From a virus: DNA of 16,585 nucleotides. The stretch lies in UHGV virus genome UHGV-0131805, one strand, 5' to 3'. Below the pieces are notes generated by a model. That model saw only the letters and a program-made list of their open reading frames with translations. It was not told where the DNA came from and did not search any database. This document shows, piece by piece, positions 1-14,597 of this stretch. Numbering within the stretch: the first letter of the stretch is position 1; every line of letters starts with the position of its first letter. The position numbers were made by a program, and so were the translations under genes.

Positions 1-49
1 CTGCCTCCGGGTGGATCATGTATGCGGGTTCGACCCCCGCCACTGACCG

Positions 50-2963: not shown

Positions 2964-4633
2964 CCCCGATCAAATTCATGATATGCCTCATCGTCATCAC
3001 GATAACCGCCCTCCATTGCCCGCGACCGCTCCGGCAGCGCCTGACAGGCTGATTCCTCCAGGATGAAGCCCTCCATGTATGAGGCCCGGTTTGCCATACA
3101 GAGCGCCACGGCAAAATCGCCATGACGGCGGGCGTTCACAGCCGTTGCGTTCTGGTCCTTCGTGCGCCCCTTGTCGATTTGCGGGACACCGTTCACCACT
3201 TTCACATGACGCAAATCATCAAGCGTGGTCTGATGGCGGGCGACGAGGATATTCTGATCCTCAAATTCGGCTTTCAGTTTTGGCATCCACTCGCCGTACC
3301 ACTTCGGCGACAGCATCACGCAGTCGATGATGTCCGGGCCAAAGGCCAGCAGCGCGGCTTCGGCCAGATACCCGCCATTACCGGTGGCGTCGAACGCCGC
3401 CCCGACCAGCGCCGGAACGCGGGTCAGGATGTACATCATCACCTGCTCCTGCTGGGCATACGGCAGGTTACGCAGCTCCACGCGAAACACCTCGCGTTTT
3501 GCCAGGGATTCGGTGATTTCCAGCAGCACAAAGCAGGACAGGTCACCGGTGCGGGCAAAGTCTTCCCCGAAGCTGAAGCGGGAACGGGGATTTAACGCCT
3601 CTGAAAGCGGTTTTAAATGTTCTTCACACCAGGTTAAAACTTCCGATTCACGCAGCCATGCGGCACGGCTGATGAAGTCGTCCGGGGCTTCAAACGTCAG
3701 AATCGGGATGTCGCGGATCATCGCCATTTCAATGAGCGCGTGGGGAATATAGGCACCGCCGGATTTTTTCGGGATACAGCCGTATTCCTCGTCGGCATCC
3801 TCACGGGTCGGGGCGTTTTTGTAGAGATCATCACGCCATTTCTGCTCGCTTTCCGGCGACCATTCGCACCCGGTGACATAACAGATACGACGGTATAATC
3901 CGTCCGCAATGGCATCATCCAGGGTAATGCGGTGGACGCTGTAATCCTTGCGCCCCTCGCGGGCTTCCTGAATGTACTGATTAAACAGATTATCGACGCC
4001 ATTATGCGTGGAAATAATGCGCACGCGCGCGCCCCACATGGTGAGCGCCATTGCCGCCTTGAGAAGTTCATCCAGCGACTCGTGGAACGCGGCTTCATCA
4101 ATCACCACATCCCCCTGAAGGCCGCGCAGGTTTGACGGACGGGAAGACAGTGCCTGAATTTTGAATCCGCTGTTCGGGAAGCGGATCATGTAGGTCAGAA
4201 TTTCTTCTTTTTTATTCCGATCCCAGAAGGTCTGCTCATACACATCAGCATCTGCCAGCTGGTTAAAGGCCCGGGAGAACAGTGCGCAGGCAGAAATATA
4301 TTCCAGCGCCATCTCCTGCTTTGACCCCACATAAAACACATTACGGCCACCACGACGCTTCGGTTTTGCGGCGGTAATGACGTTACGCCCGGCTTCCGCC
4401 CAGGTAAGCCCGGTGCGTCGGGATTTCTCCGCGATGCAGACCTGACTTTCATCCGCAAACCAGCGGGCCTGATAATCCAGAAACACCGGCATATCACCGG
4501 GCAAATCAAGGCTGTCCGGCACATCCACGCCCAGCAGGGCTTTTTCACCGGACAGATCAATTTTGCGGGGAGGTGAAAGTTTTATCAGCCCCGTATCTGG
4601 TTTAACTTTTTCTTCGCCGGTTCTTTTACTCAT
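2954..4633 (-). CDS. Terminase large subunit (Mu gp28-like)
   Basis: 559-aa ORF following the small-subunit gene; size and synteny of Mu-like TerL. No canonical Walker A was picked out by eye, so the call rests on synteny. Confidence 0.75.
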   Translation of the reverse strand: MSKRTGEEKVKPDTGLIKLSPPRKIDLSGEKALLGVDVPDSLDLPGDMPVFLDYQARWFADESQVCIAEKSRRTGLTWAEAGRNVITAAKPKRRGGRNVFYVGSKQEMALEYISACALFSRAFNQLADADVYEQTFWDRNKKEEILTYMIRFPNSGFKIQALSSRPSNLRGLQGDVVIDEAAFHESLDELLKAAMALTMWGARVRIISTHNGVDNLFNQYIQEAREGRKDYSVHRITLDDAIADGLYRRICYVTGCEWSPESEQKWRDDLYKNAPTREDADEEYGCIPKKSGGAYIPHALIEMAMIRDIPILTFEAPDDFISRAAWLRESEVLTWCEEHLKPLSEALNPRSRFSFGEDFARTGDLSCFVLLEITESLAKREVFRVELRNLPYAQQEQVMMYILTRVPALVGAAFDATGNGGYLAEAALLAFGPDIIDCVMLSPKWYGEWMPKLKAEFEDQNILVARHQTTLDDLRHVKVVNGVPQIDKGRTKDQNATAVNARRHGDFAVALCMANRASYMEGFILEESACQALPERSRAMEGGYRDDDEAYHEFDRGCW

Positions 4634-4665
4634 AACTAAACCTGTCTGTTGCCATGATTCACCTC

Positions 4666-5250
4666 CTACGCCTTACCCAGCAGCATCTGCCTGATACGGA
4701 ATTCGATCTGCTCGCTCATCCCGTCCACGCCGCGCAGCTCGTCGGTGACCGCGTTTGCCATCTCTTCAGCAAATGCGGCCCGGATTTCTTTTTCACGCTT
4801 AATGCTGCGCTCGGCGGCACTTTCCGCACGCTGCGCCGACAGGAGAATGTCCTTGATGAGGCGCATATCCACTTTGCTGTCGTCGTTCAGGGATTCGGTC
4901 GCGGCACGCAGGCGGCGGTACATCAGGGCGCGGGACATTTCCAGAATCAGCGCCGTGGTTTCACCTGTCGGCTTGTCCCCCAGTTCGGCCATCATGGCTT
5001 TTGTCTGCTCGCGCAAATCACGCAGATTGCGGGCAATCAGCTCGTTACGGGAGGCTTCCCGGCTGATGGCTGCCGGTGAAAGCTGCTGCTCATCCGGCAG
5101 GCCCGCCTCACGGATCAGGCGGTTGATTTCCTCGCGGATCTGGACCTGCGTCAGACGTTTTTCACGCAGCATTTCCAGCAGCGGCTTACGGATACTGTCC
5201 GGGAGCAAATCCACCTTGCGCACGCGGCCACGTGTCGGCTTGTCCATCAT
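4666..5250 (-). CDS. Terminase small subunit (Mu gp27-like, DUF3486-type)
   Basis: 194-aa basic, predicted helical protein immediately upstream of TerL; start overlaps the stop of the upstream gene. Synteny-based. Confidence 0.6.
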   Translation of the reverse strand: MMDKPTRGRVRKVDLLPDSIRKPLLEMLREKRLTQVQIREEINRLIREAGLPDEQQLSPAAISREASRNELIARNLRDLREQTKAMMAELGDKPTGETTALILEMSRALMYRRLRAATESLNDDSKVDMRLIKDILLSAQRAESAAERSIKREKEIRAAFAEEMANAVTDELRGVDGMSEQIEFRIRQMLLGKA

Positions 5251-5540
5251 TACCCCCTTGCGCGTGGCTTCTTCACACCCGGAACGGTGGCACGGCCTTC
5301 CGCCACATCCTGGCCCCGACCGGTCAGCTCGGCGATGAAATAACCGTTAATGAGCGTGCGCTTGCGCACCAGTCCCTGTTCGGCAAGCCAGGCTATGTGG
5401 GTATGCACGATGTCGCGGGATACGCGGTGTCCGTAATCATCCAGGCAGTCCTGGAGCACGGACTCGCCCAGTTCGCCGTTGTAATCCGCCAGCGACCGCA
5501 GAATGACAAGACGCTGATCTTCAGTAATGAAATCACTCAT
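5250..5540 (-). CDS. Hypothetical small protein (position equivalent to Mu gp26); possible winged-helix fold
   Basis: 96-aa ORF, ATGA start/stop overlap with the upstream gene and 1-nt overlap with the TerS start. No motif recognised. Confidence 0.5.
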   Translation of the reverse strand: MSDFITEDQRLVILRSLADYNGELGESVLQDCLDDYGHRVSRDIVHTHIAWLAEQGLVRKRTLINGYFIAELTGRGQDVAEGRATVPGVKKPRARG

Positions 5541-5845
5541 TGTGTTTTTTTCCTTACAGCCTGCTCCAGCAGCAGTTCGTTCTGGTGGGAGACGGATTTC
5601 AGGGTGGCATTGGTGGCCTTAAGCTCACCGCGCAGGGTGGTGATTTCGATATTGAGTCTGTTCACCTCCTGCTGCGTGGGCAGGCCGGAAATCCGGCTCT
5701 CCACCCGCTCAACCCGGTCGGAGAGTTTTTCAAAGGCCTCGCGGGGGACAAAGGTTTTGCGCATCAGCGCCATGAAGATCCCCCCGGCTGTGGCCGTTGC
5801 CGACAGGATCGGCACGACATAATCTTTAACGATGCTGACCCACAT
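5537..5845 (-). CDS. gp25-like small membrane/coiled-coil protein (DUF2730-like); candidate SAR-endolysin releasin by analogy to Mu gp25
   Basis: 102 aa with an N-terminal hydrophobic segment (VPILSATATAGGIFMALM) followed by a charged helical region. Sits between the lysis cassette and the terminase genes as in Mu. Confidence 0.5.
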   Translation of the reverse strand: MWVSIVKDYVVPILSATATAGGIFMALMRKTFVPREAFEKLSDRVERVESRISGLPTQQEVNRLNIEITTLRGELKATNATLKSVSHQNELLLEQAVRKKTQ

Positions 5846-6053
5846 GACCGGCCTCCATGATGTTCTGGCAGTTCACACAACGGATGGCATCCGGCACGGC
5901 AACCAGACGGGCAGCCGGAATATCCCCCCCGCAGTCCACGCATACACGCCTGCCCGGTGTCTCCGCCACCCGGCGCTTACGTGTCAGCCGGTCACAAAGG
6001 GCACGTTCTGTTGCCCGCTCCATGACTGCCTGAGCACAATCTGAATCATCCAT
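5826..6053 (-). CDS. TraR/DksA-family C4 zinc-finger protein
   Basis: Translation contains CVDC-(17 aa)-CVNC, i.e. C-x2-C-x17-C-x2-C, the DksA/TraR zinc-finger spacing. Start moved from the ORF-track position (6119) to the ATG at 6053 (MDDSDCAQ...), preceded by AAGGA. Confidence 0.65.
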   Translation of the reverse strand: MDDSDCAQAVMERATERALCDRLTRKRRVAETPGRRVCVDCGGDIPAARLVAVPDAIRCVNCQNIMEAGHVGQHR

Positions 6054-6063
6054 ACCTTTTTCC

Positions 6064-6435
6064 TTACTTCGTCTTTCCTGCCGGAACAGCAGACGTTCCG
6101 GCCATATCAGTAAATTCATGCTGTCGCTGTGCCTCCAGACGGCGGATGCTGGCCTTGTCCACGTTGCAGTTCTTAATCACTGCCAGCAGTTGCAGGTTGT
6201 AAGTGACCGATGCACCAAACGTGAACGGCTCCGGCACAGGGGGGACCAGGCAGTCAGCCAGCCATTCAGCGGAGATCGGCACCGGCTTCACCGGCACGTA
6301 TTTCACAGACGGCCCGCCGCACCCGGTCAGCCACATCATCAGGCACAGGCACAGCGGCCGCAGGCACCGTTGCCAGCGACCGGCGGACAATGCTCTGCTG
6401 TTCCTCGCTGTGCTGCATGTTCTGCTGTTTTTCAT
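6064..6435 (-). CDS. o-spanin (Rz1-like outer-membrane lipoprotein), overlapping the i-spanin in another frame; start uncertain
   Basis: Lipobox L-T-G-C preceded by hydrophobic CLRPLCLCLMMW and followed by a proline-rich mature region (CGGPSVKYVPVKPVPIS...PPVPEP). Overlaps the 3' part of the i-spanin and extends past it. Start could be ATG at 6435 or an in-frame TTG nearer the lipobox. Confidence 0.55.
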   Translation of the reverse strand: MKNSRTCSTARNSRALSAGRWQRCLRPLCLCLMMWLTGCGGPSVKYVPVKPVPISAEWLADCLVPPVPEPFTFGASVTYNLQLLAVIKNCNVDKASIRRLEAQRQHEFTDMAGTSAVPAGKTK

Positions 6436-6616
6436 TCGTGGCCGCCTTACTGATTTGTGAAATGAGTTGCAGGGTGCGTTGCTGATTTGCCAGCACCAGA
6501 CGGGCTTCATCCCGTTCACGCACAAGCACTTGGTTATTGTCTTCAAGGCGCTGTGCCTTCTGGTGCATTCCCCATACCACGGCAGCCAGCACGGCCATCA
6601 CCCCCAGCGCCGCCAT
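6266..6616 (-). CDS. i-spanin (Rz-like inner-membrane spanin); start uncertain
   Basis: N-terminal TM segment (MAALGVMAVLAAVVWG) followed by a long charged, Q/E/R-rich helical region. GGAGG lies 4 nt upstream of the ATG at 6616; an in-frame GTG at about 6655 is an alternative start. The ORF-track N-terminal extension overlaps the endolysin gene and is rejected. Confidence 0.55.
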   Translation of the reverse strand: MAALGVMAVLAAVVWGMHQKAQRLEDNNQVLVRERDEARLVLANQQRTLQLISQISKAATNEKQQNMQHSEEQQSIVRRSLATVPAAAVPVPDDVADRVRRAVCEIRAGEAGADLR

Positions 6617-6728
6617 ACAGCCTCCGGCAATCAGGGCCGGTAAGGGATTATTCACCGCAGCCACAGCACACCCCGCAGCACCACAACGAAACACAACAGC
6701 GCAATCATGAGCGGTCGCCAGTAACGGT

Positions 6729-7229
6729 TCAGACTTTCGGCAAATCGTAACGACATAACCATTCATCCGCCGAACGGCGGGCCTCAAGACCGGGGAGTTT
6801 CACCCCCTTCGAATAAATCCAGCGGATATACTGCTTACAGGACGCGGGCATCTGCCCGGCATTGATAAGGCGCAGGAGCGTGGAGTTGCGAAAGTTAGTT
6901 TCACCGGCCCAGAAAATCCAGGAGGCCAGCGCCACCGTCTGACCACGGGTAAGCGGCACCTGAACATGACGATCGATAGCCGCAAAGGCCCATTTCATGT
7001 CCTTTTCCAGCAGCTCAAGACATTCTTCATCGGTTTTTGTCATACCCGGTTTCACATCCGGCCCGGTATGGCCGTAACAGATGGTGAGGGTGCCGGTGGG
7101 ATCAGTGTACGTGGTGTTTTCTTTCCCTTCCCAGTAGCCGGTGTAGTGCGTGGCAATGGTGAACGTCCCGGCTCCGGCCAGAACAAGGGCAATCAGCTTT
7201 TTACGCAGTGGCGCGGGGAGTTTTGGCAT
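6729..7229 (-). CDS. SAR endolysin (phage lysozyme, T4-lysozyme-like catalytic triad)
   Basis: N-terminal basic stretch plus weakly hydrophobic Gly/Ala-rich segment (RKKLIALVLAGAGTFTIA) typical of signal-anchor-release domains. Then EGKENTTYTDPTGTLTICYGHTG, giving the E-x8-D-x5-T triad of lysozyme-family endolysins. Confidence 0.8.
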   Translation of the reverse strand: MPKLPAPLRKKLIALVLAGAGTFTIATHYTGYWEGKENTTYTDPTGTLTICYGHTGPDVKPGMTKTDEECLELLEKDMKWAFAAIDRHVQVPLTRGQTVALASWIFWAGETNFRNSTLLRLINAGQMPASCKQYIRWIYSKGVKLPGLEARRSADEWLCRYDLPKV

Positions 7230-7230
7230 T

Positions 7231-7268
7231 GTTACGCTGTCTCATGGTGTTCTCTGAGTCAGCGTAAC
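7231..7268 (-). promoter_or_regulatory. 14-bp inverted repeat (one central mismatch) with 10-nt spacer, ending 2 nt upstream of the endolysin start codon
   Basis: Plus strand GTTACGCTGTCTCA (7231-7244) and TGAGTCAGCGTAAC (7255-7268) are reverse complements except one position. In the minus-strand mRNA the 3' arm covers the region where the lys Shine-Dalgarno would sit. Confidence 0.4.
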
Positions 7269-7300
7269 CGTGGGGAAAAGAGGGCAGGATTTGCGGAATA

Positions 7301-7723
7301 TCAGAAAAGCCGGGGCTGCGTGCGCTCCTGATGCAGGCGACGCTGGTTGCGGATAACGGAGTAAATCTGCGTCTCTGACATCTGGTAGTGGCGGCGCAGG
7401 GTTTCAATTTTTTCGCCCTGGCTCCAGCGGGAAAAAATTTCATTATTGCGCAGCTCGGTGAAAAGGGACTCACCGACCGGGAGATAATAACCACGCCCGC
7501 CCATGTACCCGGCCTGAGCGGCCGCAACCTTACGGGCAAGCATACCCGCCTGAGCAGGTTCAATCCCCTGACGGTGCAGTTCAGCACTGATTACATCAAC
7601 CAGGTCACGCAGCGTGCCGGGCCAGTTCTTTTTCAGCTCATCATCAGGAATGTCATCCAGACGGTCAATCAGCGCGTGCAGCTGTTCGCTGTCACCAAAC
7701 ATGCTCATCTGTGTTTCAGCCAT
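7301..7723 (-). CDS. Mor/C-family phage transcriptional activator
   Basis: 140-aa protein immediately downstream of the GemA-like gene and upstream of lys, with a basic C-terminal region as in Mu Mor/C. Only one Mor/C-type gene is present, so Mor versus C cannot be distinguished. Confidence 0.6.
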   Translation of the reverse strand: MAETQMSMFGDSEQLHALIDRLDDIPDDELKKNWPGTLRDLVDVISAELHRQGIEPAQAGMLARKVAAAQAGYMGGRGYYLPVGESLFTELRNNEIFSRWSQGEKIETLRRHYQMSETQIYSVIRNQRRLHQERTQPRLF

Positions 7724-7754
7724 ACCCGCCTCCGGTCATCATTACACTGGGCAA

Positions 7755-7789
7755 GTTTAAAATAAAAATCCCGCGCTGTGGCGGGATTT
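7755..7789 (-). terminator. Rho-independent terminator-like hairpin on the minus strand between the GemA-like and Mor/C-like genes
   Basis: 9-bp stem AAATCCCGC / GCGGGATTT (7766-7774 and 7781-7789), 6-nt loop, followed on the minus strand by TTATTTTAAA. Confidence 0.5.
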
Positions 7790-7793
7790 GGGG

Positions 7794-8306
7794 TTAACGG
7801 GGGAATGATTTTTCATACAGCCTGCAAACACGCTCATAACTCATCACTGCACGCTCCGACATATCCAGGGCGGCCAGCATTTTGCGGCGGTGCCAGCGTT
7901 TGAGACGCTCCAGCACATCAGAGGCCAGCGCGGGGTGTTGCTCCAGCCACTGCCAGTTAGCCACACCTTCGCCGCCGTTCTGCGCGGCCGTCTGCGATTT
8001 CACCCAGCGGTTAAGGGCCGTTTCCCCGCCATCAGCGATAAATCCCTGCCGGTGCATCACTTTCCAGATGGCGCGAATTTTGGCGGTCACCGTACCCGGT
8101 TTTAAGGCCCGGTTAACCGGTTTCTGACGCACTTTAAAACCGCGTTTTTTGAAAACATCCAGCACGCGGGATAACTCATCCGGTGACATATCCCGGCAAC
8201 TGGTTTTGCCGGTGGCCGCCAGCAGCGCGGATGTATAGGTTTCATGGTCAAGCTGTAGATCGCGTTTTGCGACATGTATTAAGGTAATCAGGGAAGCGCG
8301 ATTCAT
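7794..8306 (-). CDS. GemA-like (Mu gp16 family) early regulatory protein
   Basis: 170 aa; N-terminal LITLIHVAKRDLQLDHETYTSALLAATGKTSCRDMSPDELSRVLDVFKKRGF resembles the GemA/DUF1018 pattern as I remember it. Lies directly upstream of the Mor/C-like gene as in Mu. GGAG 9-10 nt upstream of the ATG. Confidence 0.55.
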   Translation of the reverse strand: MNRASLITLIHVAKRDLQLDHETYTSALLAATGKTSCRDMSPDELSRVLDVFKKRGFKVRQKPVNRALKPGTVTAKIRAIWKVMHRQGFIADGGETALNRWVKSQTAAQNGGEGVANWQWLEQHPALASDVLERLKRWHRRKMLAALDMSERAVMSYERVCRLYEKSFPR

Positions 8307-8319
8307 TATCGTGGCTCCA

Positions 8320-8348
8320 TAAAAAATGGGCGGTGTTACCGCACCGCC
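8320..8348 (-). terminator. Hairpin plus U-run on the minus strand at the 3' side of the AT-rich island, immediately upstream of the GemA-like RBS; possible terminator or attenuator
   Basis: 7-bp GC-rich stem GGCGGTG / CACCGCC (8329-8335 and 8342-8348), 6-nt loop, then on the minus strand CATTTTTTAT. Confidence 0.4.
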
Positions 8349-8378
8349 ATATTAACACTTCAAACGAAAAGGAATGTT

Positions 8379-8639
8379 ATGAATAAAGAGAAACAACCCT
8401 ATGATGTTGCAGCCTATGTTATTGCTTCAAAACTACTGAGCCTTCTGGTTGATAAAGGCATTGTAACCCCGTCTGAAGGAACGAATATCTGCACTTGCGC
8501 AAAAGAGCTATTACCCAGCGCATCTGCCATGCGGGCAACTTCCTCGCATGGAATGCAACTGGAGAAACTCCTTCAGGATGTTATTGATTCCTTTCCGGCA
8601 CAGGATCAAGAAGGAGATTCCGAACGTCAAACGCCTTAA
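8379..8639 (+). CDS. Hypothetical 86-aa protein; the only plausible plus-strand gene in the window
   Basis: AAAGGAA lies 5 nt before the ATG. No competing minus-strand ORF covers 8307-8510. Its 3' end overlaps the minus-strand gene 8581..8898 by 59 nt. Product not recognised. Confidence 0.4.
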   Translation: MNKEKQPYDVAAYVIASKLLSLLVDKGIVTPSEGTNICTCAKELLPSASAMRATSSHGMQLEKLLQDVIDSFPAQDQEGDSERQTP

Positions 8640-8898
8640 TCTCATGATCCCGTGTGATAATATCTGACTCATCAAGGCCAAGCCTGCGTCGAATAAATTC
8701 GTTGCGGGCTTTTTTGTTAAACAACACAATTTCATCCTCAATCATTGCGATTTCATTATTAATAACGAATTGCGTCTCCGTGACAGTTAAACCCTGTTCA
8801 ATTGCCATTTCCACTATCACCCGCATTCTCTCCAGCATTCCCGCTTTTTCCAGTTCTTCGTTAATATCTTTACACTCAAATTTGATTTCTTGTTCCAT
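8581..8898 (-). CDS. Hypothetical acidic 105-aa protein, last gene of the AT-rich island
   Basis: Start set at ATG 8898 (MEQEIKFECKD...), one nt after the TAA stop of the upstream zinc-ribbon ORF; the ORF-track start at 8913 is a GTG. E/D-rich composition. No motif recognised. Confidence 0.5.
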   Translation of the reverse strand: MEQEIKFECKDINEELEKAGMLERMRVIVEMAIEQGLTVTETQFVINNEIAMIEDEIVLFNKKARNEFIRRRLGLDESDIITRDHEIKAFDVRNLLLDPVPERNQ

Positions 8899-8899
8899 A

Positions 8900-9043
8900 T
8901 TATTCATTCTCACAATTCATACATGCAGTGTCGTCGCCCATATCGCAGAGATTACACTTGCTCTCACCACAATATGGGCACTCTTTCAGATACTCCGGAG
9001 CCTCATTTCCACAGGTGGGACATTCAACAATTTGCTCATCCAT
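8900..9043 (-). CDS. Small zinc-ribbon protein with four CxxC motifs (47 aa); absent from the ORF track because it is under 60 aa
   Basis: Hand translation of the minus strand gives MDEQIVECPTCGNEAPEYLKECPYCGESKCNLCDMGDDTACMNCENE. Motifs CPTC, CPYC, CNLC and CMNC. AAGGAG lies 7 nt upstream of the ATG; stop TAA is 1 nt before the next gene's ATG. Confidence 0.5.
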   Translation of the reverse strand: MDEQIVECPTCGNEAPEYLKECPYCGESKCNLCDMGDDTACMNCENE

Positions 9044-9058
9044 TATCTTTCTCCTTAT

Positions 9059-9229
9059 TCAGTCTTCTGCGACATTCGGCACAGTCATCAGGGCTTTCAA
9101 ATGTATCCGGCTCGCGATTATGAGCCAGATATAACCACCGCCTACATATACTGATATTATCGCCTGTTTTAAAAAATGATGCTTCTTGGCCATCAGAGGA
9201 CGCGCCCATCCAGCGGGTAGACTATTCAT
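9059..9229 (-). CDS. Small 56-aa ORF with a central hydrophobic segment; absent from the ORF track
   Basis: Hand translation gives MNSLPAGWARPLMAKKHHFLKQAIISVYVGGGYIWLIIASRIHLKALMTVPNVAED. ATG overlaps the end of the upstream gene (ATGAATAG) and is preceded by GGAGG at 9-nt spacing. Coding status uncertain. Confidence 0.35.
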   Translation of the reverse strand: MNSLPAGWARPLMAKKHHFLKQAIISVYVGGGYIWLIIASRIHLKALMTVPNVAED

Positions 9230-9554
9230 TTGCTTTATCCTCCATACTGGACAGAATCATATGTATTAATGTCGGGCGTGGAGATATACGCATTTCATTA
9301 AGCGTCTGAAGGGCAGCAACAGCTGCCTGTTTATCGGTGCCTTTGGCAATTTCCGCAAGAGAATGCACAATCCATAACGGACTTAACGCCACGACTGAAT
9401 CCAGAATCATGTCATCCATAATAATTTCTGACACATCCCGCTTGTCACATTCCTTATCCATAAAAGAAACGATTTTTTCCACATCTTCCGGTTTCATGCC
9501 TCCGGCGATAAGAATTTTGCGATACTCATAAGACGATCTTAATTCAATACTCAT
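9222..9554 (-). CDS. Hypothetical acidic protein (about 110 aa) in the AT-rich island
   Basis: ORF-track start 9596 overlaps the stop of the upstream membrane gene (ATGA), but the in-frame ATG at 9554 (MSIELRS...) has AGGAG at 6-nt spacing and is preferred. D/E-rich. No motif recognised. Confidence 0.5.
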   Translation of the reverse strand: MSIELRSSYEYRKILIAGGMKPEDVEKIVSFMDKECDKRDVSEIIMDDMILDSVVALSPLWIVHSLAEIAKGTDKQAAVAALQTLNEMRISPRPTLIHMILSSMEDKANE

Positions 9555-9592
9555 ATTCATCTCCTGTAACTCTGACAAGGACGTGATTTTTC

Positions 9593-9778
9593 TCATTTAT
9601 GTTTTCCAGTAATACGTATATATATGTCGATAAGAAGATTCATAATAAACAGGAAGAGCGACATCCTGATAAAGAACCAAATATCTGGCATCATGGACAG
9701 GTTTCCTGTAATCGCAAATATAAAACCAACCCCCAACACCGGAACGATAATTGCGAAAAATACAAGTCTCTTTATCAT
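9593..9778 (-). CDS. Small membrane protein (61 aa, two predicted TM helices), first gene of the AT-rich island
   Basis: Two hydrophobic stretches (LVFFAIIVPVLGVGFIFAI and FFIRMSLFLFIMNLLIDIYI). ATGA start/stop overlap with the upstream 183-aa gene; GGGAG 9 nt upstream. Strongly AT-rich codons compared with flanking genes. Confidence 0.5.
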   Translation of the reverse strand: MIKRLVFFAIIVPVLGVGFIFAITGNLSMMPDIWFFIRMSLFLFIMNLLIDIYIRITGKHK

Positions 9779-10326
9779 GGCGTTAACTCCCGTAATACAG
9801 CGTCCTCGGCAGTCCGGCGACGGTAATAAACAGCGTGAGCAGAATGTTCAGATATGCCAAACTTTTCGCCAATTTCCCGGAATGACAGACGGCGAGGGTA
9901 ATCGGAATCCCGTAGTGCACGTATAAGACGAACATCCTCATCAGATATACGTGTGCCGGGGCGTAACTCACCGCACTTTGTTAATCCGGCACCAATCATT
10001 CCTGCGCGGCACCTGACAGAGTCTTTATTACGTCCGAGATAATCCCCCATTTGCTGGCAGGTCATTGTCCGGGCATTTTTTCGGATAAATTTATCTTCAT
10101 CAGGTGTAAATCGCGGTCGTTTATATTTCAGCAACTCCGGGTATGTACTGCGCAATACGCCAGTCCGGTTATATACGGCCCAGACACTTCTTTTTATTCT
10201 GGCGGCAATATCCTTGACCGGGGTGGAGGAATAAAGCGCAATCAGCAGCGCGTCTTCTTCAGGTGTCCACGGGCGGACATGAGCGGGTGCACAGCCTTTT
10301 CCCCCCATGGGTTGTAATTTCATCAT
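9775..10326 (-). CDS. Hypothetical DNA-binding protein (183 aa) with two tandem W/F-TP-[ED]ED helix-turn-helix-like repeats and a C-terminal HTH-like segment
   Basis: Internal repeat visible in the translation: WTPEEDALLIALY...VWAVYNR and FTPDEDKFIRKNA...VRCR (Myb/SANT-like spacing). C-terminal LSFREIGEKFGISEHSAHAVYYRR resembles an HTH. Family not confirmed. Confidence 0.45.
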   Translation of the reverse strand: MMKLQPMGGKGCAPAHVRPWTPEEDALLIALYSSTPVKDIAARIKRSVWAVYNRTGVLRSTYPELLKYKRPRFTPDEDKFIRKNARTMTCQQMGDYLGRNKDSVRCRAGMIGAGLTKCGELRPGTRISDEDVRLIRALRDSDYPRRLSFREIGEKFGISEHSAHAVYYRRRTAEDAVLRELTP

Positions 10327-10329
10327 GCA

Positions 10330-10845
10330 TCACCCCCTGACTCGCTTTTCAGCAGCATAAAACTCGTCTGACAGTATTTCGGTCATTTTCTGTTTTGCGG
10401 GTTTTACGCCGCACTGAAGGTAAATCACATCATCAACACAGAACCATTTCACGGGGCCATACAGGATTGCCGAGAAATCAATGCCCAGCCAGAACAACAG
10501 GGCATCGGTTCTGGCATACGTGACGGGCGAATATTCACGCCACAGACTGTTCAGTTCGTCAGAGGCAGTGCGCAGGGCTTTGGGAATGCGCGATGTGCGC
10601 GGCGTGCAGCTCCAGCCATTCGCCGCTGTCGGTTTTCGCCATAAATCACGATGAAAAGGATATTTGTCATCCGTAAAACGCAGCCCCTTAAAACAAAAGC
10701 CACTGATACCGGATACAAATACCGGGCGGCACTCAACATTCAGCACGGCCTCAAGGCGTTTTGCCTCATCCTTAACTTTCTGGCAGTCCTGCTGATATTT
10801 TTGCCACGCAGCCAGCGCGGAAGGGTTTGATGTTTTAAAGAACAT
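10330..10845 (-). CDS. Hypothetical early-region protein (171 aa)
   Basis: Start ATG overlaps the upstream stop (TAATG); GGAGG 8 nt upstream. No motif recognised. Confidence 0.5.
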   Translation of the reverse strand: MFFKTSNPSALAAWQKYQQDCQKVKDEAKRLEAVLNVECRPVFVSGISGFCFKGLRFTDDKYPFHRDLWRKPTAANGWSCTPRTSRIPKALRTASDELNSLWREYSPVTYARTDALLFWLGIDFSAILYGPVKWFCVDDVIYLQCGVKPAKQKMTEILSDEFYAAEKRVRG

Positions 10846-11378
10846 TACGCCACCTCCGCAGATATCCCGGCAGGCGCTGCTGTCCGGTCAACAATCAGGT
10901 AGCGCAGAACATGTTCAGTGATATTCCAGCCGCTTAAACCGCAGATAATGACACCCAGGCGAATGTCGATATACGCCATCACAAACTGGGGCACACCTTC
11001 TTTCATGGCCTGCTCATCAACTTCAGCCACCACATAAACGGTTTCACAGGTCAGTACGCCCTGAGCAAATTCCCACGCCATCGACGGAATATCATGCCCC
11101 TCAATCCACGGCAGGGACTTTCTGAAGCTGCACCACTGAACATCATCAGCCGCACATTCCTGGCTGCATTTGCGACGAACCGGCTGCACCGGGCGGGGAC
11201 GCGGAATATCATAAAAACCGTTACATTCCGTCAGCACGCCTGCATCAACCGCATCACGCAGAAAATAAACCATGGAGGATGGCGGCATATTCATTTTTTC
11301 AGCCAGTACACCGCAGGTCAGGCGGCCATAAATACGCAGCCAGTTTTTAACCCCTTCAAGCACTTTTGCATCAATCAT
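10845..11378 (-). CDS. Hypothetical early-region protein (177 aa), possible N-terminal winged-helix
   Basis: ORF with GGGGA 9 nt upstream of the ATG, downstream of a 145-nt AT-rich gap after gam. N-terminal region (LTCGVLAEKMNMPPSSMVYFLRDAVDAGVL) is HTH-like. Family not recognised. Confidence 0.45.
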   Translation of the reverse strand: MIDAKVLEGVKNWLRIYGRLTCGVLAEKMNMPPSSMVYFLRDAVDAGVLTECNGFYDIPRPRPVQPVRRKCSQECAADDVQWCSFRKSLPWIEGHDIPSMAWEFAQGVLTCETVYVVAEVDEQAMKEGVPQFVMAYIDIRLGVIICGLSGWNITEHVLRYLIVDRTAAPAGISAEVA

Positions 11379-11523
11379 GAATTATTTCCCCACCACATTA
11401 TTAATGACGATGTAAACGTATTTCATATTTCTTACCCCTTATTTTCTGTTTTCAGGCGCAAGCAGTCCCCTGACGCGAGCGCCATAATTAAAATGAAGTG
11501 ATATTTAATTGATTAATTCGGTG

Positions 11524-12054
11524 TTATTTATTCAGTCCGGCGTCCTGTTCAAAAGGCTCGACATAAAAACTTTCAGCGCCTTTATTCACCTTAATACCGG
11601 CAATGCCTTTCACCGCATCCGGCTCCGCCAGGACCGCTTCCTTATTCACTTCCTCTTTCGTGCGGATGAAACGCTCAAGGCCCATACGGCGCAGCATTTC
11701 AATCACACCTTCCACATCACGGCTGACGCTGCATGATGGATTTCCCAGTCGCCATGACACCGTTCCGGTGGTCAGATTAGCTGTTTTGGTTTTTCCGCCG
11801 TTCGTCAGCTCATCGCGGTTGGTTTTGCACCAGTCCTGAATCCCTTTAAAAAGCACTTTGATTTGCTTTTTAAGATTTTCAATCTGCGGCGTATAACGGG
11901 CGGTGATTTCTGCCACTTCATCATTCATTGCCGTTTCCAGGCGCAGCGCCTCTCGCTGAATATCTCCCAGGGTGCGGATATCACGGCTGACTTCTTCCCG
12001 GGTCTGCGGTGCCGCCTCGGCTGCGGCCTTTAATTTTGTAATGCGTTTAGCCAT
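11524..12054 (-). CDS. gam: Gam, host-nuclease inhibitor protein (Mu Gam / Ku-like DNA-end-binding family)
   Basis: 176 aa. Segments such as LETAMNDEVAEITARY, TNRDELTNGGKTKTANLTTGTVSWR and LERFIRTKEEVNKEA closely track Mu Gam as I recall it. AAGGA RBS. Confidence 0.8.
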   Translation of the reverse strand: MAKRITKLKAAAEAAPQTREEVSRDIRTLGDIQREALRLETAMNDEVAEITARYTPQIENLKKQIKVLFKGIQDWCKTNRDELTNGGKTKTANLTTGTVSWRLGNPSCSVSRDVEGVIEMLRRMGLERFIRTKEEVNKEAVLAEPDAVKGIAGIKVNKGAESFYVEPFEQDAGLNK

Positions 12055-12065
12055 TTTGTTTTTCC

Positions 12066-12359
12066 TTATTGCAATGTGTCAGGTGCTTTCTGCAAAGAGC
12101 GGTGCTCAATGCTGCCATTCACCCCCAGAGCCTGCATGGAACCCTGAAGTTCATCTGTCAGAAACTGAATAATTGTGGGGCTGTGATATTTAAGAATTTG
12201 CGCATAAACATCACATGGGCCTGTCGGTCTGTTCTCCGTATCACGTTCGATTTTTACAGTGGCAGTAACACCCTCCGTGATTTCCTCACTATCATTACCG
12301 GCTGGCTTTACTTCATGCATTACGTGGTCAAATTCAAAAATAACGCGAACTTTGCTCAT
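12066..12359 (-). CDS. Hypothetical small protein (97 aa), paralog 1 of a tandem pair
   Basis: Starts MSKVRVIFEF...; ends ...QALGVNGS.... Start moved from the ORF-track position to ATG 12359, 4 nt after the stop of paralog 2, with AGGGG upstream. Confidence 0.5.
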   Translation of the reverse strand: MSKVRVIFEFDHVMHEVKPAGNDSEEITEGVTATVKIERDTENRPTGPCDVYAQILKYHSPTIIQFLTDELQGSMQALGVNGSIEHRSLQKAPDTLQ

Positions 12360-12363
12360 GGAA

Positions 12364-12636
12364 TTACCCCTGTTGATTAAATTCATTACCGTTAATAACC
12401 CCGGAAGCCATGCTCCTGTCTTTCATGAATGCACCGGCTTTCATTGCCACAAGTTCAGCAAAGTCTCTGCTTTCCGCGAGCATAACCATCCCAAAAATCG
12501 TGGCTGGCCCAGCATCCTTCTTCTTTATTCCGGTTGACCGTATATCCAGACTTATCCCCATGTGCGCGCTGCCATCAGCGTTTTTACGGATAACGTCCTC
12601 CTTGTATTCGAAAATAATGCGAACAACTTTACTCAT
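12364..12636 (-). CDS. Hypothetical small protein (90 aa), paralog 2 of a tandem pair
   Basis: Starts MSKVVRIIFEY...; ends ...MASGVINGN.... Start set at ATG 12636 with GAGGA 7-8 nt upstream; the ORF-track 5' extension to 12735 is rejected. Confidence 0.5.
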   Translation of the reverse strand: MSKVVRIIFEYKEDVIRKNADGSAHMGISLDIRSTGIKKKDAGPATIFGMVMLAESRDFAELVAMKAGAFMKDRSMASGVINGNEFNQQG

Positions 12637-12941: not shown

Positions 12942-13347
12942 AGGTGAACTCCGGTTGTATCAGTAATGGATTCATGCGCGATGCAGCCAGTTCCAGCAGG
13001 AGGCCCCGATCAACCTCACCCATCCCCGGTATTTTTCGGGTTTCGCCACGCATGATTGCCCGAAGAATGGAGTAACCATGTCGCCACTCCCGGCGATAAT
13101 CACCCGGGATCAGAAAACCAAAACGCAGGCCTTCCCATACGTCCACATCAAAGCACTCATAATCAAAACGCTGCCGGACAGATTCACACTGCTGGTCTGC
13201 ATACCATTGATACAGGTCGATAAACAGAAAACACACACCGTCACCGTTCATCAATTCATAGATATAATCACGAACCTCACAGTCATTGTTGTTAAACGCA
13301 CGAAAGCTGTGGAGAACATTGATTTCCTGCTGTATCTGCGTATTCAT
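12928..13347 (-). CDS. Hypothetical acidic early protein (139 aa), rich in aromatic and Cys residues
   Basis: ORF co-directional with the early operon. D/E-rich with several C, W, Y and F. No motif recognised. Confidence 0.5.
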   Translation of the reverse strand: MNTQIQQEINVLHSFRAFNNNDCEVRDYIYELMNGDGVCFLFIDLYQWYADQQCESVRQRFDYECFDVDVWEGLRFGFLIPGDYRREWRHGYSILRAIMRGETRKIPGMGEVDRGLLLELAASRMNPLLIQPEFTYEFV

Positions 13348-13359
13348 ATAACACCTCGT

Positions 13360-13587
13360 TTAGCTGATTCGTTTTGCACCGATAAAACGACAAATATTGC
13401 TGTAAGCTTCTTTCGCACCTTCACGATCAAGTCCTGCCGATATTGCCATTCTGGTGCGATCATTAAATTCAAAAAGTAAATCGCCACATCCTTCACTGTC
13501 AGACACGGAGACTGCTTTGACGTTATCGAAATTCACCAGGTGAAAGCGTCCGTAAATATCAGGAATATTAAATGCAATCATAATCAC
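13360..13587 (-). CDS. Hypothetical small early protein (75 aa) immediately downstream of B
   Basis: ATGA start/stop overlap with the MuB-like gene. No motif recognised. Confidence 0.45.
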   Translation of the reverse strand: MIMIAFNIPDIYGRFHLVNFDNVKAVSVSDSEGCGDLLFEFNDRTRMAISAGLDREGAKEAYSNICRFIGAKRIS

Positions 13588-14516
13588 ACCTGTGAGAGTA
13601 ATTCAGGGTTGGCATAAACCTCTTTAAAGGCCGCATTAATATGTTTTTCTGTCAGCGCCGCGCCTTCACCACTGGCGGTGATCCACGCCTGGTTAAGTGT
13701 ATGTGTCAGAACACGTAACGCTCCCGGCTTTTCAGCGATCGCCTGCATGACGGCCAACTCTGCCTCACCACTGATACCCCATGCACGGGCAATAGCCAGC
13801 ACATCGGCCTTTTTGGCCTTGCGAAGTTGTTTTGTACGGGCAAGACGGCTGAACAGGCGCGATAAATCATCAAAGGCGCGGCGTCCGCCTTTAAACAGCC
13901 CCTTTGGGTTACCGATAAGCACCATCCCGATCCCCGTGGCGTCCTGAATTGCCCGGAGTTGCTCCAGACCGTCAATACCAAGATGATCCGCCTCATCCAC
14001 AATCACCAGTCCGCGCGTTCCCATCAGGCGACGGCGGATGGCGCGGGACAGTGCCCCTTTGTTCGCGCGGGTGTAATCAATCCCCAGCGCATCGGCCAGC
14101 TCCAGCAGACACTCCGTGACGCTGGAGTGCGCGGGTGACAGGGTGATCATCCAGGTGTTTGGTTGCTCCTGGCAGTAATTACGGGCGGTGGCCGTTTTAC
14201 CTACCCCCGGCACGCCCACTATGACGTTAATACAGCCCATCAGGCGAACCGCCTGAAACAGCGCGCGCAGTTCCTGGACTGTCTGCGTTTCCACAAACTG
14301 CGGCGGTTCCGGCAGTGCGCTTTGGTTATTCCAGTTCTCATACCAGGAATGCAGGGAAGCCGCCACAGCAGCGTTATCGCCTTTATATTTTCCCTTGCGG
14401 AAAGCCGATAATGTGCCGTCAGAAATACCCGCCTCTCTGGCGATGGCATACTGCGTCAGTACGCCGCCATCAATAAGTTCATCTATGGTCTTGATTACAT
14501 CGTTAATATCAGTCAT
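13584..14516 (-). CDS. B: MuB-like DNA transposition protein B (AAA+ ATPase, target DNA activator)
   Basis: Walker A GVPGVGKT and Walker B LVIVDEADHL in the translation. Segments LPEPPQFVETQTV, LSRAIRRRL, KKADVLAIARAW and EKPGALRVL track Mu B as I recall it. Directly downstream of the transposase gene. Confidence 0.85.
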   Translation of the reverse strand: MTDINDVIKTIDELIDGGVLTQYAIAREAGISDGTLSAFRKGKYKGDNAAVAASLHSWYENWNNQSALPEPPQFVETQTVQELRALFQAVRLMGCINVIVGVPGVGKTATARNYCQEQPNTWMITLSPAHSSVTECLLELADALGIDYTRANKGALSRAIRRRLMGTRGLVIVDEADHLGIDGLEQLRAIQDATGIGMVLIGNPKGLFKGGRRAFDDLSRLFSRLARTKQLRKAKKADVLAIARAWGISGEAELAVMQAIAEKPGALRVLTHTLNQAWITASGEGAALTEKHINAAFKEVYANPELLSQV

Positions 14517-14597
14517 ATTATTTACCTCGCTTGAGACAGCATTCTCCGAGACTGAAACCCAAATAACCTGAGTTACCCCTCGGGTTATTTTTTTATT

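What the first reader, a model, noticed from the sequence alone, without database searches (positions are those of the whole stretch)
8350..9780. AT-rich island of small coupled genes inserted in the GC-rich early operon of a Mu-like prophage
From about 8350 to 9780 the base composition drops visibly (judged by eye, not computed) relative to the flanking phage genes. Five small co-directional genes sit here: a 61-aa two-TM membrane protein, an acidic protein of about 110 aa, a 56-aa hydrophobic mini-protein, a 47-aa 4xCxxC zinc ribbon and an acidic 105-aa protein. Start and stop codons overlap or nearly abut (ATGA, ATGAATAG, TAA-N-ATG), and a hairpin plus U-run closes the cluster. None resembles a known Mu gene as far as I can tell. 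Compositional contrast plus small acidic and membrane proteins in an early operon is the usual signature of horizontally acquired phage accessory cargo, such as anti-restriction or anti-defence proteins, superinfection exclusion or abortive-infection modules. This is my best candidate for an undescribed system.
Basis: partly seen in the sequence, partly recalled or inferred. Interest (0 to 1): 0.75.

Follow-up and report, generated by a model that had tools for sequence, protein, structure and literature searches.

The report
Variable early-region genes of Mu-like prophage
The AT-rich stretch is real, but it is the already-known, poorly conserved "semi-essential early" region of an E. coli Mu-like prophage: a patchwork of swappable small genes, half of them counterparts of phage Mu genes 13, 14 and 15, with no sign of a new defence or anti-defence system.

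Summary
The compositional break is real. 8307-9778 has 41.7% GC against 57% in the late genes and 50% in the rest of the early operon, and the lowest-GC 1430-bp stretch of the window starts at 8349.

The interpretation needs correcting. Three genes here are homologues of phage Mu genes, in Mu's own order just before gemA:
- The zinc ribbon is gp13.
- The 105-aa acidic protein is gp14.

The "56-aa hydrophobic mini-protein" is the out-of-frame tail of a frameshifted phrog_2358 gene (T6 here, T7 in relatives). The closing hairpin is a conserved element about 20 nt upstream of gemA in Mu, SfMu, D108 and Salmonella relatives.

Compared with related prophages, the stretch breaks into at least three cassettes that are exchanged independently, so it is not one inserted unit. 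All families are confined to enterobacterial Mu-like phages.

Pfam, NCBIfam, PADLOC, PDB sequence search, AlphaFold2 models and fold searches gave no functional assignment.

Verdict: an ordinary mosaic accessory region of a transposable phage, function still unknown. The most notable feature is the hypervariable convergent gp14/gp15 pair next to a strongly constrained gp13 zinc ribbon.

The parts
9593..9778 (-). 61-aa basic protein with two hydrophobic segments ('TM61'). Its start overlaps the stop of the SANT/Myb gene (ATGA).
   Evidence: ORF. GRAVY 1.32, pI 10.4. Weak phrog_19804 match. 85% identical in FORC_069-type prophages. Replaced by 116-aa and 109-aa genes (phrog_6158, phrog_6925) in L021/L025. 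No counterpart in Mu.
9222..9554 (-). 110-aa acidic protein (phrog_1988). The longer 124-aa reading would start at 9596.
   Evidence: phrog_1988 E 1.8e-44, aligned from residue 15. GGAG lies 6 nt before the ATG at 9554. Called as 110 aa in public assemblies. 34% identical to SfMu ORF14. pI 4.9. Found only in Mu-like phages.
9036..9229 (-). Frameshifted phrog_2358 gene. The 56-aa ORF (9059-9229) keeps only about 21 conserved N-terminal residues. The conserved frame continues in ORF 9036-9209. The T6 run lies at 9171-9176.
   Evidence: Alignment with FORC_069 shows T6 against T7. All six window-type loci have T6. The T7-encoded 65-aa protein matches phrog_2358 positions 4-67, E 4.7e-34. The window's 56-aa ORF matches positions 4-31 only.
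8900..9043 (-). 47-aa acidic zinc ribbon with 4xCxxC; homologue of Mu gp13 (E14).
   Evidence: phrog_5584 E 1.6e-25. 85% identical to Mu, D108 and SfMu gp13 over 41 residues. pN 0.145 against pS 0.82 versus Mu. Pfam zinc-ribbon matches are below their cut-offs.
8581..8898 (-). 105-aa acidic helical protein; homologue of Mu gp14 (E15).
   Evidence: phrog_6075 E 1.2e-29. 43% identical to Mu gp14. 33 clusters found, all E. coli, Salmonella or Shigella. AlphaFold2 pLDDT 85, helical hairpin with a long helix at 39-73. No informative fold match.
8379..8639 (+). 86-aa acidic protein on the opposite strand; homologue of Mu gp15 (Mup15). Convergent with the gp14-like gene, with a 59-nt 3' overlap. Divergent from gemA.
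   Evidence: phrog_8747 E 2.7e-18. 44% identical to Mu 7911-8162 minus strand, annotated as Mup15 in NC_000929. AAGGAA ribosome-binding site. It is the only stop-free frame and has the lowest pN/pS in 6 lineage pairs. Same position in 8 cassette types. AlphaFold2 pLDDT 71, three helices.
8319..8348 (-). Conserved hairpin GGCGGTG-N6-CACCGCC followed by T6, 22 nt upstream of the gemA ATG. It lies in the 72-nt gp15/gemA divergent intergenic region.
   Evidence: Terminator-like by pattern scan. -13.2 kcal/mol, z -3.1. Identical stem with different loops in Mu, SfMu, D108-like, L015-17, L018 and L027-30. A different 8-bp stem sits at the same place in L031/L032. Absent from FORC_069-type prophages, which also lack gp13-gp15.
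7794..8306 (-). GemA (gp16); conserved flank on the promoter-distal side.
   Evidence: PF06252 E 8.3e-29.
9775..10326 (-). 183-aa SANT/Myb-like DNA-binding protein. It is the first gene of the block that is extra relative to Mu (between gp12 and gp13). GC 0.50, so it lies outside the AT-rich stretch.
   Evidence: phrog_323 E 1e-51. Absent from Mu, SfMu and D108 between gp12 and gp13.
10330..10845 (-). Mu gp12 homologue; conserved flank on the promoter-proximal side.
   Evidence: 54% identical to Mu gp12. PF26885 Phage_Mu_Gp12 in the identical loci.

Best explanation
The AT-rich stretch is the promoter-distal part of the semi-essential early (SEE) region of an Escherichia coli Mu-like (Muvirus) prophage. 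This is the long run of small, poorly conserved, dispensable genes between the transposition genes and gemA-mor.

Shown here:
- Relative to Mu the gene order is gp12, then [SANT/Myb, TM61, phrog_1988 protein, frameshifted phrog_2358 gene], then gp13 (zinc ribbon), gp14, gp15 (opposite strand), the hairpin, gemA and mor.
- The stretch is a mosaic of at least three cassettes that recombination exchanges among related prophages.
- gp13 is under strong purifying selection.
- The C-terminal part of gp14 together with gp15 is a hypervariable convergent pair.
- The hairpin is conserved as a structure.

Inferred:
- The minus-strand genes are read as part of the early Pe transcript, and translation of neighbouring genes is coupled through the overlapping stop and start codons.
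- Their small acidic or membrane products act on host components early in lytic growth, as the neighbouring SEE products Gam, Kil and GemA do. The gp13 zinc ribbon would bind a conserved host target.
- gp15 is transcribed on its own against the early transcript, so it would be made mainly when Pe is silent (in the lysogen) and shut off by convergent transcription after induction.
- The hairpin partly stops early transcription before the gem promoter region.
- The low GC is a family-wide property of this accessory region, not a mark of one recent foreign insertion.
For: Synteny and homology to Mu gp11-gp17:
- Shown: Mosaic structure:
- Against FORC_069, 8280-9038 is replaced by a 98-aa phrog_17269 gene, while the flanks are 94-95% identical.
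- Against E. coli 2015C-3121, 8371-8819 and 9056-9768 are replaced.
- Against L021/L025, TM61 is replaced.

Selection:
- gp13 pN 0.145 / pS 0.82 against Mu.
- Between the window and L018, gp13 dS is 0.07 and gemA dS 0.22, but gp14 between them has dS 1.37.

gp15:
- Coding frame shown.
- Conserved position in 8 cassette types.

Hairpin:
- Conserved, with an alternative stem in one lineage.

Composition:
- Mu's own gp13-gp15 stretch is 0.465 GC against 0.53-0.55 in its flanks.

Literature:
- SE genes are 'largely unknown' in function, with low-level expression in lysogens and constitutive gem expression (PMC3820752).
- Mu's record annotates a promoter over the hairpin region upstream of gemA.
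Against: - No function is shown for any gene. There was no match in Pfam, NCBIfam, PADLOC or PDB, and the fold searches gave only generic helical bundles.
- No sigma-70 promoter for gp15 was found by the consensus scan, so its independent, lysogen-phase expression is pure inference.
- In Mu the hairpin lacks a U-tract (CCCTTTCC), so it cannot be a strong terminator everywhere.
- FORC_069-type prophages do without gp13, gp14, gp15 and the hairpin. Whatever these do, it is dispensable or replaceable.
- One gene is frameshifted, so part of the stretch may be decaying.
Confidence: 0.7

Rival explanations
1. One reading: one horizontally acquired cassette that forms an undescribed anti-restriction, anti-defence, superinfection-exclusion or abortive-infection system.
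For: - Low GC.
- Small acidic and membrane proteins.
- Position in the early operon next to Gam, a known nuclease inhibitor.
- Presence or absence varies among relatives.
- The zinc ribbon gives faint, sub-threshold matches to Lar and YacG.
Against: - The cassettes are exchanged independently, so it is not one unit.
- Three genes are Mu's own gp13-gp15 in Mu's order.
- PADLOC gave 0 hits.
- The Lar and YacG scores of 15-16 bits are far below the cut-offs of 40-83 bits.
- The families are not found in leading regions of conjugative plasmids. Only a few non-mobilizable replicons of about 52 kb carry them.
- One of the five 'components' is a frameshift artefact.
Confidence: 0.1
2. gp14 and gp15 form a matched two-protein specificity pair. 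gp15 would be made in the lysogen and would neutralise or sense the cognate early protein gp14. That would work as an immunity-like, exclusion or addiction module, which would explain why the pair diversifies together.
For: - The two genes are always adjacent, convergent and overlapping at their 3' ends in 8 cassette types.
- The cassette is swapped between otherwise close prophages.
- A hybrid gp14 (P0007) has an L018-like N-terminal half and a window-like C-terminal half.
- Both proteins are small and helical.
- There is a precedent for small reverse-strand genes with exclusion activity in a Pseudomonas transposable phage (PMC9936078).
Against: - Co-variation is expected simply from physical overlap and linkage.
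- Both proteins are acidic (pI 4.65 and 4.75), which does not favour a simple charge-matched complex.
- No toxin or antitoxin family matched.
- Neither an interaction nor lysogen expression was tested.
- Many prophages lack the pair.
Confidence: 0.12
3. The functional content is mainly regulatory RNA and transcription architecture. Convergent transcription of gp15 plus the hairpin would insulate gemA-mor from leaky early transcription and set the timing of the middle regulator Mor. The protein sequences would matter little.
For: - The hairpin is conserved as a structure, with two different stems, about 20 nt before gemA.
- It has a U-tract in the window, L018 and L027.
- Mu's record annotates a promoter over this region.
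- A second terminator-like hairpin lies between gemA and mor in this prophage.
Against: - gp15 shows protein-level purifying selection and a conserved N-terminal motif across lineages whose DNA no longer aligns.
- The U-tract is absent in Mu and in L032.
- FORC_069-type prophages couple a different gene directly to gemA with no hairpin.
Confidence: 0.1
4. The stretch is decaying, non-functional prophage DNA. AT-richness would then reflect relaxed selection and mutation bias.
For: - One gene is frameshifted.
- The genes are dispensable in relatives.
Against: - ORFs are intact, with ribosome-binding sites and coupled junctions.
- gp13 and gp15 are under purifying selection.
- The identical gp15-like protein is listed in 70 assembly blocks, and the six loci read (L020-L025) are 89-99% identical to the window in DNA.
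- The rest of the prophage looks complete.
Confidence: 0.05

Closest known systems
Phage Mu semi-essential early (SEE) region, genes 13-14-15 (E14, E15, Mup15) upstream of gemA (gp16) and mor (gp17)
   Same: - Same order and orientation: gp12 ... gp13, gp14, reverse-strand gp15, hairpin, gemA, mor.
- gp13 is 85% identical, gp14 43% and gp15 44%.
- The hairpin stem is identical.
- Local GC is lower than the flanks in Mu too.
- Function is unknown in Mu as well.
   Different: - Four extra genes lie between gp12 and gp13 (SANT/Myb, TM61, phrog_1988, frameshifted phrog_2358).
- gp13 lacks Mu's 19 N-terminal residues.
- The hairpin is followed by a T6 tract, which Mu lacks.
- gemA and mor are separated by a 70-nt spacer with a second hairpin instead of overlapping.
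Shigella phage SfMu and the Yersinia Mu-like phages vB_YpM_5/6
   Same: They carry gp13, a phrog_1988 homologue (SfMu ORF14, 34-36% identical), gp14, an annotated reverse-strand 88-aa gene, and gemA.
   Different: In SfMu the phrog_1988 gene lies between gp13 and gp14; here it lies upstream of gp13. SfMu has no TM61 or SANT/Myb gene.
Mu-like prophages of E. coli, including O157:H7 strains (FORC_069 type; about 230 complete genomes)
   Same: 94-95% DNA identity over 4699-8279 and 9039-11386. They share SANT/Myb, TM61, phrog_1988 and phrog_2358.
   Different: - They have an intact T7 phrog_2358 gene.
- A 98-aa hydrophobic phrog_17269 gene, coupled directly to gemA, takes the place of gp13-gp14-gp15 and the hairpin.
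Small reverse-strand exclusion genes of Pseudomonas transposable phage Fc02 (olg1 and gene 10)
   Same: Small genes lie on the strand opposite to the early operon of a transposable phage, overlap an early gene, and are expressed in the lysogen (PMC9936078).
   Different: They lie next to the repressor rather than next to gemA. No sequence relation was tested or expected. Exclusion activity is shown there and untested here.

Membership tests
Mu semi-essential early (SEE) region | Lies between the transposition genes A/B and gemA-mor, on the early-operon strand. | tested here: met
   A is at 14598-16535, B at 13584-14516, gam, gp11 and gp12 upstream, and GemA and Mor downstream, all on the minus strand.
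Mu semi-essential early (SEE) region | A run of small, poorly conserved genes of unknown function. | tested here: met
   ORFs of 47-124 aa with PHROG families all labelled 'unknown function'. Mosaic replacement among relatives. Description of the region in PMC8705779.
Mu semi-essential early (SEE) region | Dispensable for plaque formation. | not testable with these tools
   Indirect only: otherwise intact related prophages lack gp13-gp15 or TM61.
Mu gp13 (E14) zinc-ribbon family, phrog_5584 | Significant profile match and the conserved 4xCxxC core, located directly upstream of gp14. | tested here: met
   E 1.6e-25. 85% identity over 41 residues. TAA-N-ATG junction to the gp14 homologue.
Mu gp14 (E15) family, phrog_6075 | Significant profile match over the full length, located between gp13 and gemA. 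| tested here: met
   E 1.2e-29, residues 6-99. 43% identical to Mu gp14.
Mu gp15 (Mup15) family, phrog_8747 | Reverse-strand ORF of about 80-120 aa between gp14 and gemA, with the N-terminal motif DVAgY-IAS-L--LLV-KGIIT--EG. | tested here: met
   E 2.7e-18. 44% identical to Mu. Same position. Coding frame supported.
Known anti-phage defence systems (PADLOC-DB 2.0) | Any component matching a defence-system profile. | tested here: not met
   0 families for all nine proteins at E <= 0.1.
Lar restriction-alleviation and YacG gyrase-inhibitor zinc fingers | Score above the curated family cut-off. | tested here: not met
   TIGR03655: 15.6 bits against 39.6. NF001638: 15.8 against 83. PF03884: 14.6 against 25.5. 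phrog_6422: E 0.062.
Intrinsic (Rho-independent) terminator | G+C-rich stem-loop immediately followed by a U-tract on the transcribed strand. | tested here: met
   7-bp stem (6 G-C pairs), 6-nt loop, CATTTTTTAT tail, -13.2 kcal/mol, z -3.1. The U-tract is not conserved in Mu or L032.
Intrinsic (Rho-independent) terminator | Transcripts end at the site. | not testable with these tools
   Needs 3'-end mapping.
Programmed -1 ribosomal frameshift site | X_XXY_YYZ slippery heptamer in the zero frame, with the -1 frame encoding the conserved product. | tested here: met
   CAT TTT TTA gives U_UUU_UUA at 9170-9176. The -1 frame equals the phrog_2358 frame.
Programmed -1 ribosomal frameshift site | Stimulatory structure 5-9 nt downstream. 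| tested here: not met
   The only stable hairpin starts about 38 nt downstream. Region z-score -1.4.
Type II toxin-antitoxin pair (considered for gp14/gp15) | Co-transcribed adjacent pair with a recognisable toxin or antitoxin fold or family. | tested here: not met
   The genes are convergent, not co-transcribed. No Pfam, NCBIfam or PADLOC hit. Fold matches are generic.

The most novel reading that the evidence does not exclude
The convergent, overlapping gp14/gp15 pair, together with the hairpin before gemA, would be a self-contained, rapidly diversifying two-protein module of Mu-like phages. gp15 would be made from the silent prophage and gp14 from the early lytic transcript. Their cognate interaction would decide the outcome of superinfection or induction, as an exclusion, immunity or addiction-like switch. 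This module would be distinct from the repressor system and has not been described for Mu.
Probability: 0.1. Interest if true: 0.6.

Novelty: new member of a known kind. Interest (0 to 1): 0.25.

Why it matters
As it stands, this is a correct call of a compositional anomaly that turns out to be the known variable early region of Mu-like phages, so its value is mainly in annotation.
- It shows that the 56-aa ORF is a frameshift artefact.
- It shows that a reverse-strand gene, the Mu gp15 homologue, is real and conserved. This argues against the newer Mu GenBank annotation, which replaced gp15 with a sense-strand ORF (Mu_54).

If followed up, three features offer entry points into a region of a model phage that the papers read here still describe as of largely unknown function:
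- the strongly constrained gp13 zinc ribbon;
- the hypervariable gp14/gp15 pair;
- the structurally conserved hairpin before the gem operon.

Tried and rejected
- Family scans: Pfam, NCBIfam and PADLOC on all island proteins gave nothing above cut-off.
- PDB sequence searches for gp14-like, gp15-like (profile) and the 110-aa protein gave only chance-level hits.
- Word-indexed homologue search for gp15-like found 1 cluster. Full HMMER against 1.84 billion representatives found only 5 true relatives. The family is tiny.
- A scan of GTDB species-representative genomes with the gp15 alignment confirmed no locus.
- Rfam gave no family above threshold.
- The idea that the zinc ribbon is the C-terminal domain of a ~110-aa protein came from a 90% cluster that grouped it with 103-110-aa proteins. 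I rejected it because those proteins are unrelated in sequence, so the cluster is an artefact.
- The idea that T6 is a sequencing error was rejected: all six window-type loci from independent samples have T6.
- Programmed frameshifting at T6: the heptamer is present but there is no properly spaced stimulatory structure. Left as unlikely.
- A plasmid leading-region association was not found.
- Literature searches for PMID 9454718 (cited for Mu's 'semi-early promoter') and for the arm function found nothing usable.
- The promoter scan found no sigma-70 site for gp15. By eye, an extended -10-like TGtTAATAT lies just 5' of the hairpin on the gemA strand (8349-8357). Its use is unverified.


Full report
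**Observation.** In 300-nt windows GC falls from 0.55-0.62 left of 8100 to 0.37-0.47 between 8100 and 9900. The stretch 8307-9778 has GC 0.417, against 0.572 for 1-7300, 0.556 for mor+gemA and 0.501 for the rest of the early operon. The lowest-GC 1430-bp window of the whole 16.6 kb starts at 8349. The right-hand flank is not GC-rich (0.47-0.53), and the early operon has further AT dips near 11250-11550, 12150-12450, 13200-13650 and 14400-14700.

All genes of the prophage run on the minus strand. The hairpin GGCGGTG-cggtaa-CACCGCC followed by CATTTTTTAT lies at 8348-8319. It folds at -13.2 kcal/mol, z -3.1.

- The 230 nt between the last minus-strand gene (stop at 8581) and the hairpin are not empty. 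They hold a + strand ORF, 8379-8639, 86 aa, with an AAGGAA ribosome-binding site. It is convergent with the 105-aa gene and overlaps it by 59 nt.
- The 56-aa 'hydrophobic mini-protein' is a frameshift product.
  - The window has a T6 run (9171-9176) where FORC_069-type prophages have T7.
  - The T7-encoded 65-aa protein matches phrog_2358 over 64 residues (E 4.7e-34). The window's 56-aa ORF matches only through its first 27 residues.
  - T6 is not a read error, because all six window-type loci from independent samples carry it.
  - The site happens to be a U_UUU_UUA heptamer whose -1 frame restores the conserved protein. The only stable downstream hairpin is about 38 nt away, so I regard programmed frameshifting as unlikely.
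- 'None resembles a known Mu gene' is wrong (next section).

**Identity of the genes**
- The flanks are Mu gp11 and gp12 homologues (69% and 54% identical) on one side and GemA and Mor on the other.
- The 47-aa zinc ribbon is a gp13 (E14) homologue: phrog_5584, E 1.6e-25, 85% identical over 41 residues to Mu, D108 and SfMu.
- The 105-aa acidic protein is a gp14 (E15) homologue: phrog_6075, E 1.2e-29, 43% identical. Its homologues confirm the 105-aa start at 8898.
- The + strand ORF is a gp15 homologue. It is 44% identical to the translation of Mu 7911-8162, minus strand. RefSeq NC_000929 annotates that ORF as Mup15/gp15 and SfMu annotates it as an 88-aa gene. The newer AF083977 annotation drops it and lists a 55-aa sense-strand ORF, Mu_54, instead.
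- The 110-aa acidic protein (phrog_1988; likely start at 9554 behind GGAG-N6) is 34-36% identical to SfMu ORF14. It occurs only in Mu-like phages.
- TM61 has no Mu counterpart. Mu has only four proteins with transmembrane domains, all near the lysis genes (PMC9239132).

So relative to Mu the order is gp12, then [SANT/Myb 183 aa, TM61, phrog_1988, frameshifted phrog_2358], then gp13, gp14, gp15, the hairpin, gemA and mor. Members of the protein clusters are named Escherichia coli, Escherichia sp. or Shigella. The gp15-like protein is listed with exactly this sequence in 70 assembly blocks. The six loci read are 89-99% identical to the window in DNA over their aligned segments.

**Is gp15 a real gene?**
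- In five lineages whose DNA no longer aligns, the ORF stays open at 79-119 codons. Every other frame carries stops.
- In six pairwise comparisons over the 66 codons that do not overlap gp14, the gp15 frame alone is stop-free. It also has the lowest, or in one pair the joint-lowest, pN/pS (0.35-0.55). The Mu_54 frame comes second, as expected for an antisense frame, but it contains stops.
- A shared N-terminal motif (DVAgY-IAS-L--LLV-KGIIT--EG) links three PHROG families: 8747, 32893 and 38610.
- The family is tiny. It has 5 representatives among 1.84 billion cluster representatives.

**Mosaic structure.** The stretch is not one unit.
- Against FORC_069-type prophages (about 230 complete E. 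coli genomes), the flanks 4699-8279 and 9039-11386 are 94-95% identical. The stretch 8280-9038 (gp13, gp14, gp15 and the hairpin) is replaced by a 98-aa hydrophobic phrog_17269 gene coupled directly to gemA.
- Against E. coli 2015C-3121, gp13, the hairpin and gemA are 88-92% identical. The stretch 8371-8819 (C-terminal part of gp14 plus gp15) and the stretch 9056-9768 are replaced.
- In L021 and L025, TM61 alone is replaced by two other genes.
- Between the window and 2015C-3121, dS is 0.07 for gp13 and 0.22 for gemA, but 1.37 for gp14 between them. This indicates recombinational swapping of a gp14/gp15 cassette.
- A hybrid gp14 (P0007) joins an L018-like N-terminal half to a window-like C-terminal half.
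- The triad of gp14, convergent gp15 and gemA recurs in every cassette type examined: Mu, SfMu, D108-like, L015-17, L018, Salmonella L027, L029 and L032.

**The hairpin.** The stem GGCGGTG/CACCGCC is identical in all but one of these lineages, with four different loops. It always lies about 20 nt before the gemA start codon. L031 and L032 have a different 8-bp stem (GGCTGCGC/GCGCGGCC) at the same place, so the structure rather than the sequence is kept. The 3' tail is U-rich in the window, L018 and L027, but not in Mu (CCCTTTCC) or L032. It therefore cannot be an equally strong terminator everywhere. In Mu's record, an annotated 'semi-early promoter' covers the same interval; I could not obtain the cited paper. 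The hairpin is present only where gp15 is present.

**Selection.** Against Mu, gp13 has pN 0.145 at saturated pS (0.82). This is the lowest pN of the seven early proteins compared, while gp12, gp14, gp15 and GemA have pN 0.34-0.40. The gp13 zinc ribbon is therefore strongly constrained. A 57% identical copy sits in a non-Mu Klebsiella phage, next to an exonuclease, a Gp2.5-like single-strand-binding protein and a DNA polymerase. This is a weak hint of a link to DNA metabolism.

**Function**
- Nothing assigns a function. Pfam gives only sub-threshold zinc-ribbon hits. NCBIfam gives Lar and YacG at 15-16 bits, against cut-offs of 40-83. PADLOC gives nothing, and PDB sequence searches give nothing.
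- The gp14-like model (pLDDT 85) is a helical hairpin with a 35-residue helix. The gp15-like model (pLDDT 71) is a three-helix bundle.
- The families are not enriched on plasmids.

[quoted passage not shown] Its genes are 'largely unknown' in function, are weakly expressed even in lysogens, and lie next to the constitutively expressed gem operon (PMC3820752).

**Most likely mechanism (inferred).**
- The minus-strand genes are read from the early promoter as part of the SEE operon, with translational coupling.
- Their products are dispensable modulators of host processes early in lytic growth, like the neighbouring Gam, Kil and GemA.
- gp13 probably binds a conserved host target.
- gp15, on the opposite strand, would be made when the early promoter is silent and would be suppressed by convergent transcription after induction.
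- The hairpin would attenuate early transcription ahead of the gem promoter region.
- The low GC is a property of this accessory region across the family. Mu itself dips to 0.465 over gp13-gp15, against 0.53-0.55 in its flanks.

I give 0.7 to the identity and architecture part. The specific functional inferences are much weaker.

**Rivals**
- A cognate gp14/gp15 two-protein switch (0.12) fits the invariant pairing and hypervariability. A Pseudomonas transposable phage has small reverse-strand exclusion genes, which offers a precedent (PMC9936078). However, linkage alone explains the co-variation, and both proteins are acidic.
- A purely regulatory role of convergent transcription plus hairpin (0.1) is weakened by the protein-level constraint on gp15.
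- Decay (0.05) is contradicted by purifying selection.

**Verdict.** This is a new combination of known but uncharacterised Mu-family accessory genes, not a new kind of system. Interest is low to moderate (0.25).

Noticed in passing
window 8379-8639 (+); Mu AF083977 7911-8162 (-): The current GenBank annotation of phage Mu (AF083977) lists a 55-aa sense-strand ORF, Mu_54, where RefSeq NC_000929 lists the reverse-strand gp15. Six-frame pN/pS and stop-codon counts across six lineage pairs support the gp15 frame, not Mu_54.
   Followed up: yes
window 9170-9176 (-), within 9036-9229: The T6 run that breaks the phrog_2358 gene forms a U_UUU_UUA slippery heptamer whose -1 frame restores the conserved 65-aa protein. 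All six window-type loci have T6; FORC_069-type prophages have T7. There is no canonically spaced downstream structure.
   Followed up: partly
window 7766-7789 (-), in the 70-nt gemA-mor spacer 7724-7793: A second terminator-like hairpin lies between gemA and mor: a 9-bp stem AAATCCCGC/GCGGGATTT followed by TTATTTTAAA. In Mu these two genes overlap with no spacer. This suggests separate control of mor read-through in this prophage lineage.
   Followed up: no
L031/L032 about 3040-3065, compared with window 8329-8348: One gp14/gp15 cassette lineage carries a different hairpin (GGCTGCGC-TAAT-GCGCGGCC) at the same position before gemA. This is whole-stem replacement that preserves the structure.
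   Followed up: partly
L026 (Klebsiella phage Kpn BU9) 3501-3653: A 57% identical copy of the gp13 zinc ribbon lies in a non-Mu 60-kb phage between a 264-aa hypothetical gene and an exonuclease, followed by a Gp2.5-like single-strand-binding protein and a DNA polymerase. Copies at 77% identity also occur on ~52-kb non-mobilizable Klebsiella replicons.
   Followed up: partly
window 11386-11413, compared with L001 6241-6766 and L024 9004-9582: The window lacks a gene of about 180-190 aa that related prophages carry between gam and the gp11 homologue (called PF17457 DUF5420 in L024). This is another presence/absence site in the early region.
   Followed up: no
window 11250-11550, 12150-12450, 13200-13650, 14400-14700: There are further AT-rich dips (GC 0.40-0.45) along the early operon. 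Low GC is therefore patchy across the whole semi-essential region, not unique to the flagged stretch.
   Followed up: no
window 8349-8357 (-): TGtTAATAT, an extended -10-like motif, lies immediately 5' of the hairpin on the gemA strand. If used, transcription would start inside the 5' arm of the hairpin. It was noted by eye only and was not reported by the promoter scan.
   Followed up: no
protein cluster of window 8903-9043: The 90% cluster holding the 47-aa zinc ribbon is represented by unrelated 103-110-aa E. coli proteins (MITTLFVESDEP...). This is a clustering artefact that could mislead automated annotation.
   Followed up: yes
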